Assembly: GCF_009914755.1 (NCBI RefSeq)
Contig: NC_060925.1
DNA: 64,000 nt
From: the human T2T-CHM13v2.0 reference genome, Homo sapiens
Strand: one strand, 5' to 3'
In this document: positions 46,736-49,889 of the stretch, piece after piece
Layout of the letters: each line of letters opens with the position of its first letter
Numbering within the stretch: position 1 is the stretch's first letter
Position numbers and translations under genes: made by a program
Notes under the pieces: generated by a model
What the model was told of the DNA's origin: nothing
Seen by the model: only the letters and a program-made list of their open reading frames with translations
Database searches by the model: none

Positions 46736-49105
46736 TGATCATTTTTAGAACCTAGTGGGTACATTTAACTGAGCCCGAGGCTGCACCTGTGCTATCAAGA
46801 ACACAAATGGTGGAAAAAAGAAAATGAATACAATCTTGGGGTTCTCCTTGTGACATAAAAATGTATTTCAGACTTGGAAAAAGATAAAACGAGGCTAACA
46901 ATATATGTTTTTTATAAAGTTCATGCATGTTCTGATAAGTCTGCTTGTGTGTCATCTGATATTTGTTGTGACAGTTAATTTGGCCAACAGTCCATAGTCA
47001 AGGTTAGAATTTAATCTGCAGAAATTTATAAAATGCTGTGATTTCACAATCTGTAAAAAGTCAACCAGTCTTCTAACTAATTTAGCAATTTTTTTTACAC
47101 ATCCCTTACACAAATGACTATATAGATCTCAGTTTTTTCAAATGCTGTTGGATATTCCCCTTAATCTACCCTCTGGTTCTTTCATTAATGAGTTACATAA
47201 AGTGTTGACAAGCACAAACAAATACCTTTTTGCTTGAGAACTGTACTTTATCAATATTCTGGATCCACTTTGCACCAAATGCCATTTAGACTCTATTCAC
47301 TAAATAAATTAACCTATTGTCTTAGCATAATGATGCTTTGGCATGATGACATTTGCCTTATTATAATTTATTTAAATATATGCGTGTGTTAAAATATTTC
47401 AGGGAGCCAAAATGTTGTTCCCTAAACACATCAGCACAGGCCAGGTACCAGGGCCACTGTGTGTGAATTTGCCTTTTCTCTTTCAAAGCTGATTTTTTGA
47501 TGCTGAGAGCTTGACCGTGGTGTTGTGATACGCCAATATTTAATTTACAAATAGCGTTATGTCTTGATTCTGTCACCCTGCATGTCTGGAGGTGAAGGAC
47601 TGAGGTATGGAATTGAAGTAGATCCTTTCCACATACGGGGATCCCCTCCACATTCCTGCAGTGCTCAGCCATCCGTGAAAAGCATTGTCTTGCTGTGTTG
47701 TGAAATGTGCATTTACTATCTGTTTTCCCATTGCTAAATTGTGTAACTTCATTGTATAATGAGAAACCAAGAGCTTTGTAGTGGTAGCACGGAGAAGAAA
47801 TACTTTTCTTACAATTTTGGACTCTTCCCATTGTTCGTTCATTTTTTTTTCTTCCACAGAATCAAGGGTGGCCACCCTGTTTTATGAAGAGAGTGAATTA
47901 GGTGTGAAGTACTGGAATACAACACACCATTACAGACATGTCCCCCTGGCTTCCTGAAAGCCTGATTTGACTTGCCATATGGTCAACATGACAGAGAGAG
48001 TGAACATTGAATACTGATAGAGCCCTGACTGCAGACTCCACTCTGCCACTCCTGGCTCAGTGTCCTTCTAATGACACAACTTTTCAGTGTATTTCCAGGC
48101 CAATCAATTTCATCTTCTCCTCTACAGTCACATGTGTGCATTTAAAATGTCAAGTATATGTTCTAGATTGAGCTTCCTATCTTATCTGTCTTATTTCTCC
48201 TTACCACCCAATGTTGATTCATCGTCCAAGCAAAAATGTTTGTGGAACCATAATGATGACAGGTTCCCTCTGTTTTCTTTATATCTGTTACTGTAGGAAT
48301 AGAGTAGAGTTTATTGCGGCAACCCTAGTACCTCGTTCAGTGTCTTCCATTTAGTGTACCTGATATGTATAAATTAAATTGAATTTAATTCTCTTTTCTA
48401 TAGCAATGGTTTTTGTTTTCTTATTGCAATGTCATATTTTTCTAATTATCCTCTGTCTACTCTTCTGTGTCTTTTACCTAGGCATTATTGGCATGGAATG
48501 CCAACTTTGGATATGTTTTTCTCATTTTGTACTTGTTTCTGTGTTTTATGTTTCTGCTTATATTGCAAAGGCTTTCAATTCATGACACTATCTTTAGCCC
48601 TCTCATTACTCAGTTTAGTGCACACTGTATAATGGCCATTCTGTATATTGTCAGGATGACATACTGCTGTATGAACATAACCCAAGCTTTTTCATTCCCA
48701 AGTTTCACTTTCATTTCCTTTCTGATTCATTTCAAGTCCACCCAATACTCCTTATTTCCAGGAATCGTTTTCTGAAGCTGTGGATAGACTTCAGGAGACA
48801 GCTAATTTAGTATGCCTAAAGCAGCATAATTGAACTGTGGAAGGCACTGTTTTTGTATTCAGTTGGTTAATGAATGTACTTTTTCAATGCTGAAGCAGGA
48901 ATAGTGCCAGCAAGCAAACTTTACGGAGAGTACATGACATGCTTTTCTGTCTTCTAGTTTCTACTGATTCATCAGAACGGGGCATTGTTCTGTGATCCTT
49001 CCTGCAGTTTCAAAACAGATCTACATTCCATAGCTTCCTCATTTCAAATGGCCAATTTATCGCTAACTTCAAAAACGTGCTCTGTGTCACTTTTTAAAAC
49101 AAATC

Positions 49106-49252
49106 AGCAAGTCACATCTTACATGGATGGCGGCAGGCAAAAAGAGAGCTCCTCCTTGCCTTCCGCCATGATGTGAGGCCTCCCCAGCCATGTGGAACTG
49201 TATAAGTCCATTAAACCTCTTTTGAAAATTAAAAAATAAATAAATAAATAAA
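49106..49252 (+). mobile_element. Processed THE1(A/B) LTR retrocopy with 5' inversion, polyA tail and TSD
   Basis: Inverted THE1 piece 49106-49150, sense piece 49148-49230 with ATTAAA at 49210, A-rich tail, TSD taaaacaaatcag at 49095-49107 and 49253-49265. Confidence 0.88.
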
Positions 49253-49889
49253 TAAAACAAATCAGAATCTTCCATGTTCTAACTTTTCCATGCTTTTGAA
49301 GTTGCTAGAAACTTGATAACATATCTTCTGTAACTCTTAGCTCTCTTTATTTCTAGAGTACAGCATGGTATTGGCAAATACAACCATTTAATATTCTAAC
49401 ACTTTGTAGCTAACTGAAAGAAGGGGATCTGATTTTGCAAGGAAAAACCCAGAAAATGTATCACACATCAGAGGATAAGCAAGTTCTGCCTGAAAGCATT
49501 TCAAATAATATTTAATGGAAAAGTTAAAAACAAAACTACTGAATTGATCTCTCAAAGCAGATTTCTAAGTTACAAAATGCAAAGGATTAATACTGTGTGA
49601 AGTACTAGAGTTCTGTTGTATGAATATGGTAGCTCAGAGCTCAAAACCCACAGTAATGTGGATTTCACAAAAGGCCTTATCATTTATTTGGGGAGATTTT
49701 TTTGCACAGCCGACAGTGTTCCATTAAGGTGTGTTTGTGAATGCTGTCCGATCACCCCACAGACGGTGAAAATGTGTCCTCCTTCTGAATACGAAGCAAG
49801 CACTCTGCAGGGGATATAGGAGGGTTTGAGTTCTAATTGGAGGCAAGTAGTTCTATATCTCCTGGTTTACCAGCACATTCATGGAAATC

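What the first reader, a model, noticed from the sequence alone, without database searches (positions are those of the whole stretch)
49091..49265. THE1 LTR transcript retrotransposed by L1 with a twin-priming 5' inversion
Seen, in order: TSD taaaacaaatcag (49095-49107) at a TTTT-AAAA site; 45 nt of THE1 in antisense (49106-49150); the directly adjoining THE1 sequence in sense (49148-49230), through ATTAAA (49210) and stopping 15 nt later; an A/TAAA tail; the second TSD copy (49253-49265). The two pieces are contiguous in the THE1A/B consensus as I recall it (...atgtgacttgct|cctccttgcc...). They show gct microhomology at the inversion junction and ag overlap with the TSD end. Established: this is the geometry of L1 twin priming. 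Inference: a polyadenylated THE1-terminated germline RNA was used as an L1 substrate, an LTR sequence spreading by a non-LTR route.
Basis: partly seen in the sequence, partly recalled or inferred. Interest (0 to 1): 0.78.

Follow-up and report, generated by a model that had tools for sequence, protein, structure and literature searches.

The report
L1-made inverted copy of THE1 LTR RNA
A 124-base piece of a THE1 retroviral-type repeat was copied from RNA into chromosome 1 by the LINE-1 machinery, with its front part flipped; this is a clean example of a well-known process, not a new one.

Summary
An exact 13-nt target-site duplication (49095-49107 and 49253-49265) lies at a T5/A4 site. It flanks 45 nt of LTR in antisense, the adjoining 82 LTR positions in sense, ATTAAA at 49210, an end 15 nt later, and an A6(TAAA)4 tail.

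One complete 363-nt solo LTR on chr17 (C17:66833289-66833651) is the only other place in the genome with an exact match to both the 45-mer and the last 23 nt. There the two pieces are colinear (LTR 189-233 and 231-312). That LTR continues with U5 sequence where the chr1 copy has its A tail.

So this is an L1 target-primed retrocopy of a polyadenylated RNA, with a twin-priming 5' inversion.

New here are the likely source locus and the 5' end. The copied RNA starts about 24 nt after the LTR's TATA-like box. Two other TSD-flanked MaLR retrocopies, without inversion, start at the same LTR position. The template was therefore probably (about 55%) an "R-only" RNA, running from the LTR's own start site to its own polyA site.

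The mechanism is textbook: processed pseudogenes, HERV-W pseudogenes and retro-DNAs all arise this way. Interest is modest. Age and the empty site could not be tested.

The parts
49091..49095 (-). T-run of the L1 endonuclease target (top strand TTTTT/AAAA; first nick on the bottom strand)
   Evidence: sequence. Identifying it as the L1 EN consensus TTTT/AA is established knowledge (TT/AAAA motif as quoted in PMC11195612 and PMC5537654 passages).
49095..49107 (.). Target-site duplication, 5' copy (TAAAACAAATCAG). The first T could belong to the target T-run instead, which would make the TSD 12 nt.
   Evidence: family D2; chance control.
49106..49150 (-). Inverted 5' segment: antisense copy of chr17 LTR positions 189-233 (45/45). 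Its first 2 nt (AG) are shared with the TSD end and its last 3 (GCT) with the sense segment.
49148..49230 (+). Sense segment: chr17 LTR positions 231-312, from the inversion junction to the RNA cleavage site. It differs from the source by CACG>CATG, a 1-nt deletion and a TA duplication.
49210..49215 (+). ATTAAA polyadenylation hexamer of the LTR (LTR 292-297). Cleavage is 15 nt after it.
   Evidence: The source continues GCCAAGTC... where the copy has A's.
49231..49252 (+). Degenerate poly(A) tail, A6(TAAA)4
49253..49265 (.). Target-site duplication, 3' copy
   Evidence: family D2.
49127..49169 (.). 14-nt inverted repeat (49127-49140 / 49156-49169, 93% complementary). It is a by-product: a near-direct repeat inside the LTR R region became inverted when the 5' segment was flipped.
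   Evidence: pair I5. Both arms are seen as direct near-repeats in the chr17 LTR, positions about 202-215 and 241-254 (print).

Best explanation
A short polyadenylated RNA ending at the polyA site of a THE1-type solo LTR was reverse-transcribed into chr1 by LINE-1 target-primed reverse transcription. The most likely source is the LTR at chr17, C17:66833289-66833651.

Proposed sequence of events:
1. L1 endonuclease nicked the bottom strand at TTTTT/AAAA, and the T-run primed on the poly(A).
2. The first cDNA copied LTR 312 back to about 234.
3. After the top strand was cut 13 nt downstream, its 3' end (...CAG) annealed by 2 nt (AG on CU) to the same RNA at LTR 232-233. It primed a second cDNA that ran to LTR 189-192. 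This is twin priming.
4. The two cDNA ends were joined over a 3-nt GCT/AGC microhomology. The result is the inverted 5' segment, a flush junction and a single pair of 13-nt TSDs.

Shown: the anatomy, the colinearity in the source, the end at the polyA site, the tail, the TSD and the target motif.
Inferred: the order of priming events, and L1 as the enzyme source.

Sub-claim (about 55%): the RNA was the LTR's own R-only transcript, about 124 nt, from the LTR's start site (about 24 nt after its TATA-like box) to its own polyA site. On this reading the second cDNA ran to the RNA's 5' end.

The insert carries no U3 promoter, lies between two lncRNA genes (hub annotation), and is most likely neutral.
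For: Anatomy.

Source locus:
- The 45-mer has 541 genome matches at 3 or fewer mismatches (reversed-pattern control 0). Only 2 are exact: the window itself and C17:66833477-66833521. A further 33 have 1 mismatch.
- The terminal 23-mer has 14 matches at 1 or fewer mismatches. Only 2 are exact: the window itself and C17:66833578-66833600. The other 12 all carry T where these two have A.
- No locus other than chr17 appears on both lists at 1 or fewer mismatches.
- Over both pieces, chr17 differs by 3 events and the next best of the 118 held loci by 7.

RNA intermediate: the source LTR continues ...GAAAATT|GCCAAGTC... into U5, where the copy has its tail.

L1 signature: 13-nt TSD, T5/A4 site, A-rich tail. 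The flanking 300 nt are single-copy.

R-only sub-claim:
- LTR 189 lies 24-25 nt after the T of the TATA-like box.
- Of 6 well-supported TSD-flanked, A-tailed short MaLR retrocopies (WIN, L035, L063, L075, L085, L094), 3 start at the same LTR position, (A)GCTCTC. These are WIN, L085 (TSD 11 exact) and L063 (TSD found beyond an Alu in its tail).
- The chr17 LTR is solo: flanks GAATT/GAAGT and no internal sequence.
- THE1B CAGE start sites are focused, with a TATA box 25-35 bp upstream (PMC5932608, passages). The THE1A start lies upstream of THE1B position 204 (PMC10735291, passages).
Against: - No outgroup or population data, so the empty site and the age are untested.
- The chr17 R region is only about 3% from many other copies: 96-97% over about 116 nt. 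Source assignment therefore rests on a few positions. Only part of at least 3457 first-look candidates was compared. A lost or unsampled source is possible (about 15-20%).
- The 2- and 3-nt microhomologies are short enough to arise by chance.

Against the R-only sub-claim:
- The chr17 copy's TATA-like box now reads TTTTAACAAG, not TTTTATAAAG as in other copies.
- 24-25 nt is at the short end of TATA-to-start spacing.
- The furthest-upstream 5' RACE clone of a DUX4-driven THE1B-HEY1 transcript starts upstream of the TATA box (PMC3836709 Dataset S1). THE1 LTR transcripts therefore do not all start at one place.
- The three other short retrocopies start elsewhere: L035 is truncated, L075 starts about 10-13 nt upstream, and L094 was not placed.
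- No RNA data for the chr17 LTR were available.
Confidence: 0.86

Rival explanations
1. Same L1 twin-priming event, but the template was a longer RNA (a host or intergenic read-through transcript, or a spliced lncRNA) that merely ended at the chr17 LTR polyA site. On this reading the 5' end at LTR 189-192 is just where the second cDNA stopped.
For: Most L1-mediated copies are 5' truncated: 74% of somatic processed pseudogenes (PMC4151081, passages). In my survey L035 and L083 are truncated inside R. Other A-tailed copies include U3 or sequence upstream of the TATA-like box: L073, L067, L086, L089. The chr17 TATA-like box is degenerate today.
Against: The 5' end coincides, to within 1-3 nt, with the 5' ends of two independent un-inverted retrocopies (L063, L085) and with the expected TATA-to-start distance. 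A random stop would hit a 5-nt window in about 5% of cases.
Confidence: 0.3
2. Orphan L1 3' transduction. An L1 upstream of the chr17 LTR read through its own weak polyA signal and used the LTR's signal. The L1 RNA was then retrotransposed in cis and truncated or inverted so severely that only LTR sequence remains.
For: Four loci show an L1 3' end, then an A-run, then a MaLR LTR part ending at the LTR polyA site, then a tail: L049, L068, L096, L099 (read by eye). An L1 ORF1 fragment lies on the same strand about 7.2-8 kb upstream of the chr17 LTR (L090:2035-2792; Pfam Transposase_22 E=4e-24, Tnp_22_trimer E=2e-7).
Against: No L1 ORF2 domain turned up in any + strand ORF of 40 aa or more in the 10 kb upstream. 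Between them searches covered all 58 such ORFs; the 11 minus-strand ORFs of 80 aa or more also gave nothing. No L1 3' end abuts the LTR (flank). The 5' end coincidence is left unexplained.
Confidence: 0.07
3. Not an RNA-mediated event: an ordinary THE1 LTR integration later rearranged (U3 and U5 deleted, 5' part inverted, microsatellite grown), or a DNA fragment captured at a break. On this reading the flanking repeat is chance.
For: None specific. THE1 fragments in both orientations are common, and the 45-mer has 541 near matches.
Against: The TSD is 13 nt, against the 5-bp duplications of MaLR integration (GAATT/GAAGT at the chr17 LTR). The copy ends exactly 15 nt after ATTAAA and has a tail absent from the source. 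The pieces are flush in the source. The copy shares the chr17-only base in the last 23 nt. For repeat-by-chance expectation.
Confidence: 0.02

Closest known systems
L1-mediated processed pseudogenes / retrocopies with twin-priming 5' inversion (Ostertag & Kazazian 2001, recalled, paper not held; Kazazian 2014 review PMC4151081, passages read)
   Same: TSD of 5-20 bp, TT/AAAA-type target, poly(A) tail, an end at the RNA's cleavage site, and an inverted 5' segment contiguous with the 3' segment. The review reports such inversions in 20% of somatic processed pseudogenes.
   Different: The template is not an mRNA of a gene. It is about 124 nt of a solo LTR, so repeat annotation would show it as two opposed LTR fragments plus a simple repeat, not as a retrocopy.
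HERV-W processed pseudogenes (PMC5537654 and PMC5016936; abstract and passages of the first, listing only of the second)
   Same: RNA of an LTR element mobilised by L1. The hallmarks are an LTR cut at the R boundary, a poly(A) tail, a TT/AAAA motif and a 5-15 nt TSD.
   Different: HERV-W copies are R-U5-internal-U3-R, made from proviral transcripts. Here there is only R from a solo MaLR LTR, with an inversion. The review calls HERV-W the sole HERV group mobilised by L1, so MaLR/THE1 examples lie outside what it lists.
Retro-DNAs: DNA-transposon sequences retrotransposed by L1 (PMC11195612, passages)
   Same: A fragment of a non-L1 repeat class that carries L1 hallmarks (long TSD, polyA tail after ATTAAA, TT/AAAA site) instead of its own class's hallmarks.
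   Different: The source class is an LTR element with its own promoter and polyA signal, so the template may be the element's own short transcript rather than part of a host transcript.
L1 3' transduction, including orphan transductions (recalled; no paper read)
   Same: Flanking sequence ending at a downstream polyA signal is carried by L1 machinery. MaLR polyA sites do serve this role at L049, L068, L096 and L099.
   Different: No L1 sequence is present in the chr1 insert, and no L1 3' end was found upstream of the candidate source.

Membership tests
L1 (TPRT) retrocopy / processed pseudogene | Target-site duplication of about 5-20 bp flanking the whole insert | tested here: met
   13/13 exact at 49095-49107 and 49253-49265. 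Markov control mean is 0.67 such repeats per window.
L1 (TPRT) retrocopy / processed pseudogene | Insertion at a TTTT/AA-type endonuclease site | tested here: met
   The pre-insertion site reads ...CACTTTTT/AAAACAAATCAG....
L1 (TPRT) retrocopy / processed pseudogene | 3' end at an RNA cleavage site 10-30 nt after a polyA hexamer, followed by a poly(A) tail that the source DNA lacks | tested here: met
   ATTAAA at 49210-49215, end at 49230, tail A6(TAAA)4. The chr17 LTR continues GCCAAGTC....
L1 (TPRT) retrocopy / processed pseudogene | An identifiable source locus elsewhere in the genome | tested here: met
   C17:66833477-66833600 is the only other exact match for both the 45-mer and the 23-mer. 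It is the best of 118 held loci, 3 events against 7 for the next. Sampling of the family was not exhaustive.
L1 (TPRT) retrocopy / processed pseudogene | Empty (pre-insertion) allele in an outgroup or in the population | not testable with these tools
   No primate genomes or human variation data are held. The left flank has no paralogue in this genome.
Twin-priming 5' inversion | 5' segment inverted, 3' segment in sense, the two adjacent in the template with only a small overlap or gap | tested here: met
   LTR 233-189 antisense, then LTR 231-312 sense, with 0-3 nt overlap.
Twin-priming 5' inversion | One TSD pair encloses both segments; the inverted segment abuts the 5' TSD copy and has no tail of its own | tested here: met
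Twin-priming 5' inversion | Microhomology between the target 3' end and the internal priming site, and at the inversion junction | tested here: inconclusive
   AG (2 nt) and GCT (3 nt) are present. Matches this short are expected by chance at about 1/16 and 1/64.
THE1 (ERVL-MaLR) LTR | Sequence similarity to the family's LTRs, which are about 350-365-nt units that can flank a roughly 1.5-kb internal region | tested here: met
   541 near matches of the 45-mer. Full LTRs were printed. L102 holds two LTRs, 84% identical to the chr17 LTR, flanking 1.53 kb.
THE1 (ERVL-MaLR) LTR | Assignment to a named subfamily (THE1A/B/C/D) by a curated library | not testable with these tools
   No Dfam or RepeatMasker is available. 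The chr17 LTR keeps the roughly 10-nt stretch before GCC that copies such as L003 and L008 lack. That place matches the 303_312delinsTT listed as THE1A-specific in PMC10735291, so it looks THE1B-like. This is an inference.
HERV-W-type LTR-element processed pseudogene | R-U5 ... U3-R structure (copy of a full element transcript) | tested here: not met
   Only LTR 189-312 is present, with no U5, internal or U3 sequence.
Orphan L1 3' transduction | A same-strand L1 whose 3' end lies upstream of the transduced sequence at the source locus | tested here: inconclusive
   Only an ORF1 fragment about 7.2-8 kb upstream. No ORF2 domains were found in any of the 58 + strand ORFs of 40 aa or more. An old, decayed or since-deleted L1 cannot be excluded.

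The most novel reading that the evidence does not exclude
Solo MaLR/THE1 LTRs make capped, polyadenylated R-only RNAs of about 120-140 nt, from the LTR's own start site to its own polyA site, in cells that contribute to the germline. L1 has retrotransposed such RNAs repeatedly. This would leave a small uncatalogued class of 'retro-R' copies: this inverted one plus at least L063 and L085. Current repeat annotation reads them as LTR fragments, yet they record the LTR's start and cleavage sites at single-nucleotide resolution.
Probability: 0.5. Interest if true: 0.45.

Novelty: new member of a known kind. Interest (0 to 1): 0.33.

Why it matters
The finding has three modest consequences.
- It gives a source-resolved example of an LTR sequence spreading by the non-LTR (L1) route. 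That route is described in print for HERV-W and, by analogy, for DNA transposons, but I did not find it described for MaLR/THE1. The searches were made, covering only the held open-access library.
- Such copies inflate and confuse LTR fragment counts and LTR-based dating.
- If the R-only reading holds, these copies are fossil evidence that solo LTRs fire and terminate within themselves in the germline or early embryo, and they map the start and polyA sites. No effect on a gene is expected here.

Tried and rejected
- Ostertag & Kazazian 2001 (PMC311219) is not held, so the defining features of twin priming are recalled and taken from PMC4151081.
- The THE1B-HEY1 5' RACE clone (PMC3836709 Dataset S1) was read to place the LTR start site. 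It starts upstream of the TATA box (DUX4-driven), so it does not fix the canonical start.
- The figures of PMC5932608 and PMC10735291 that show the start site are not held. Their supplements were not opened and may give coordinates.
- A search for a paralogous empty site with the left flank found only the window's own locus.
Stop-free ORFs were scanned instead.
- I tested whether A-tailed U3-R 3' LTRs preceded by internal MaLR sequence are HERV-W-like pseudogenes. The loci were L037/L104, L047/L103, L055/L107, L059/L105 and L084/L106, found among 17 screened. No convincing TSD was found for the four tested (L103, L104, L105, L106). L104 and L107 have an ordinary 5' LTR, and L055, L059 and L070 are followed directly by L1-like sequence (by eye). 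This is unresolved.
- No antisense LTR hit abutting the copy, the sign of an inversion, was seen in the 27 survey loci BLASTed. The 10 loci of the second survey were not BLASTed this way.
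Full report
WHAT IS THERE

The sequence at 49091-49265 reads, in order:
- a T-run (49091-49095);
- TAAAACAAATCAG (49095-49107);
- 45 nt that match LTR copies in antisense (49106-49150);
- 83 nt that match in sense (49148-49230), containing ATTAAA at 49210-49215;
- A6(TAAA)4 (49231-49252; Tandem Repeats Finder period 4);
- TAAAACAAATCAG again (49253-49265).

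The 13-nt direct repeat is exact (D2). Outside one TG/TA microsatellite, the real window holds 8 exact direct repeats of 13 nt or more at spacing 60-400. Thirty first-order Markov simulations gave a mean of 0.67. This repeat sits exactly at the two edges of the block. The 300 nt to the left are single-copy in the genome.

IS IT TWO CONTIGUOUS PIECES OF ONE LTR?

I did not use a remembered consensus. I searched the window's own genome instead.
- The 85-nt sense piece gave 974 first-look candidates, of which 40 were scored. The best hit other than itself is C17:66833519-66833600, 95% over 83 nt.
- The 45-nt antisense piece has 541 matches at 3 or fewer mismatches (reversed-pattern control 0). 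Only two are exact: the window and C17:66833477-66833521, on the opposite strand. Another 33 loci have one mismatch.
- The last 23 nt before the tail have 14 matches at 1 or fewer mismatches. Only two are exact: the window and C17:66833578-66833600. The other 12 all carry T where these two carry A.
- No locus other than chr17 is on both lists at 1 or fewer mismatches.

The chr17 unit is a complete 363-nt LTR (L002:1271-1633). Its flanks are GAATT and GAAGT (a 4/5 match, as for a 5-bp integration duplication), and there is no internal sequence on either side, so it is a solo LTR.

Pairwise alignment places the antisense piece on LTR 189-233 (45/45) and the sense piece on LTR 231-312. The sense piece differs by one substitution (CACG in the source, CATG in the copy), a 1-nt deletion and a 2-nt TA duplication. 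The pieces are thus colinear and flush. The 3 nt GCT could belong to either piece, and the AG at the TSD edge could belong to either the TSD or the LTR.

Counting substitutions, gaps and unaligned ends over both pieces, chr17 scores 3 events. The next best of the 118 loci I held scores 7. Those 118 include repeated fetches of the same places and some non-LTR loci.

A caution applies. The chr17 R region is itself 96-97% identical to many copies (3457 first-look candidates, 40 scored). The assignment therefore rests on a few positions and on incomplete sampling. I put it at about 80-85%.

WHY AN RNA INTERMEDIATE AND L1

In the chr17 LTR the sequence continues ...GAAAATT GCCAAGTC... into U5. In the chr1 copy the same GAAAATT is followed by the A-rich tail. 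The end lies 15 nt after ATTAAA, the usual cleavage distance.

A 13-nt TSD and a TTTTT/AAAA target are the L1 signature, as quoted in PMC5537654 and PMC11195612 (passages). MaLR integration makes 5-bp duplications.

The inverted 5' segment abuts the 5' TSD copy and is contiguous with the sense segment, and one TSD pair encloses both. This is the geometry of twin priming. That mechanism is recalled from Ostertag & Kazazian 2001, which is not held. The review PMC4151081 (passages) reports such inversions in 20% of somatic processed pseudogenes.

The flush junction is what one expects if the first cDNA ran up to the place where the top-strand primer was already annealed on the same short RNA. That step is inference.

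WHAT WAS THE RNA?

The copied stretch begins at LTR 189-192. In other copies a TTTTATAAAG box sits so that its TATA starts 24-25 nt before position 189. The chr17 copy now reads TTTTAACAAG there.

To see whether this 5' end is special, I surveyed the genome for LTR ends followed by A-runs.
- ATTAAACCTCTT, a 3-18 nt gap and A8 gave 88 raw matches, which collapse to 42 places (reversed control 15 raw). A stricter A12 form gave 2.
- By eye, 15 of the 42 are ordinary LTRs that continue past an A-run. One is not an LTR, 3 are ambiguous, and in 23 the A-run is followed by unrelated sequence.
- An AATAAA variant with A10 gave 14 places. I fetched 9 of them. I left out 5 whose matched strings did not look like MaLR ends; these were not checked. 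A (TAAA)-type tail pattern added one more place.

Well-supported short retrocopies with TSDs are:
- L035, 18-nt TSD, truncated inside R;
- L075, 16-nt TSD;
- L085, 11 nt exact;
- L063, TSD found 329 nt beyond the tail, past an Alu;
- L094, 13-nt TSD;
- the window's copy.

L083, L073 and L092/L093 are weaker. L092 and L093 are one event present on chr9 and chr17.

In the alignment, L085 and L063 begin immediately after their TSDs at GCTCTCTC, the same LTR position as the window's AGCTCTC. That makes 3 of 6. L075 begins about 10-13 nt further upstream in a different MaLR subfamily. L094 was not placed.

Published CAGE work reports focused sense-strand start sites in THE1B, with a TATA box 25-35 bp upstream (PMC5932608, passages; figure not held). 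Another paper places the THE1A start upstream of THE1B position 204 (PMC10735291, passages).

Against a single start site, the furthest-upstream RACE clone of a DUX4-driven THE1B-HEY1 transcript starts upstream of the TATA box (PMC3836709 Dataset S1).

Weighing these, I give about 55% to an R-only template: the solo LTR's own start site to its own polyA site, about 124 nt. I give about 30% to a longer read-through RNA that was truncated.

ORPHAN L1 TRANSDUCTION?

MaLR polyA sites do terminate L1 read-through RNAs. L049, L068, L096 and L099 each show an L1 3' end, an A-run, an LTR part ending at the LTR polyA site, and a second tail (by eye).

Upstream of the chr17 LTR I found only an L1 ORF1 fragment about 7.2-8 kb away on the same strand. 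No ORF2 domain turned up in the + strand ORFs of 40 aa or more (58 ORFs in all) or in the 11 minus-strand ORFs of 80 aa or more. I give this rival about 7%.

AGE

The copy and chr17 differ by 1 substitution in about 123 aligned positions, at a CpG, plus two small indels, all on the copy's side where other copies agree with chr17. The TSDs are perfect, and the tail has decayed to (TAAA)n.

This points to an event long after THE1 amplification: the copy shares chr17's private base. It is probably within the ape lineage. With one substitution the interval is very wide, and no outgroup genome was available.

COMPARISON AND VERDICT

It works like, and meets the tested criteria of, an L1-mediated processed retrocopy with a twin-priming inversion. 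It is not a HERV-W-type R-U5...U3-R pseudogene, because only R is present. It is the LTR counterpart of the 'retro-DNAs' of PMC11195612.

I found no description of L1-mobilised MaLR/THE1 RNA in the held library. A HERV-W review calls that group the sole HERV group mobilised by L1 (PMC5537654, abstract).

The mechanism is textbook and the insert is intergenic (hub annotation), without a promoter. This is a new member of a known kind, of modest interest. Its best use would be as one of a set of R-only retrocopies that map LTR start and polyA sites.

Noticed in passing
L063 (C5:70170624 +) and L085 (C16:64097401 -): Two TSD-flanked, A-tailed MaLR LTR retrocopies without inversion. Each begins right after its TSD at GCTCTCTC, the same LTR position as the 5' end of the RNA copied into the window. 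L063 has an Alu inserted in its tail.
   Followed up: partly
L049 (C4:38500689), L068 (C6:82872124), L096 (C1:33539860), L099 (C2:126300249): Each shows an L1 3' end plus A-run, directly followed by part of a MaLR LTR that ends at the LTR polyA site with a second A tail. These look like L1 3' transductions terminated by MaLR polyA signals. In three of them the LTR part starts at the same place, just after the TTTAAAAG box. Read by eye only.
   Followed up: partly
L092 (C9:115379539) and L093 (C17:77461405): The same short THE1-type retrocopy with near-identical flanks on two chromosomes, so one event was later duplicated. Its cleavage site is after GTAAATT, the same position as in the window's copy.
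   Followed up: no
L035 (C9:93924419): An 85-nt, 5'-truncated THE1-type retrocopy with a pure A21 tail and an 18-nt TSD (AAGACTAGAGGCAAATTA). It looks young.
   Followed up: partly
L103 (C3:166642245), L104 (C1:7977771), L105 (C5:54238094), L106 (C16:62549787): Internal MaLR sequence followed by a 3' LTR that stops at the polyA site with an A tail (U3-R-An), as at the 3' end of HERV-W processed pseudogenes. No TSDs were found. L104 has an ordinary 5' LTR, and L105 is followed by L1-like sequence.
   Followed up: partly
window 273-285/457-469, 2163-2175/2368-2380, 34187-34201/34467-34481, 40464-40478/40836-40850: Other exact direct repeats of 13-15 nt at spacing 184-372. The pair at 2163/2368 brackets the masked stretch 2182-2385, so these may be TSDs of other retro-insertions.
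   Followed up: no
L090:6360-6743 (about 3.3-3.6 kb upstream of the chr17 LTR): A 71-nt tandem repeat, about 5.5 copies and 75% matches, of unknown identity. An L1 ORF1 fragment lies at L090:2035-2792.
   Followed up: no
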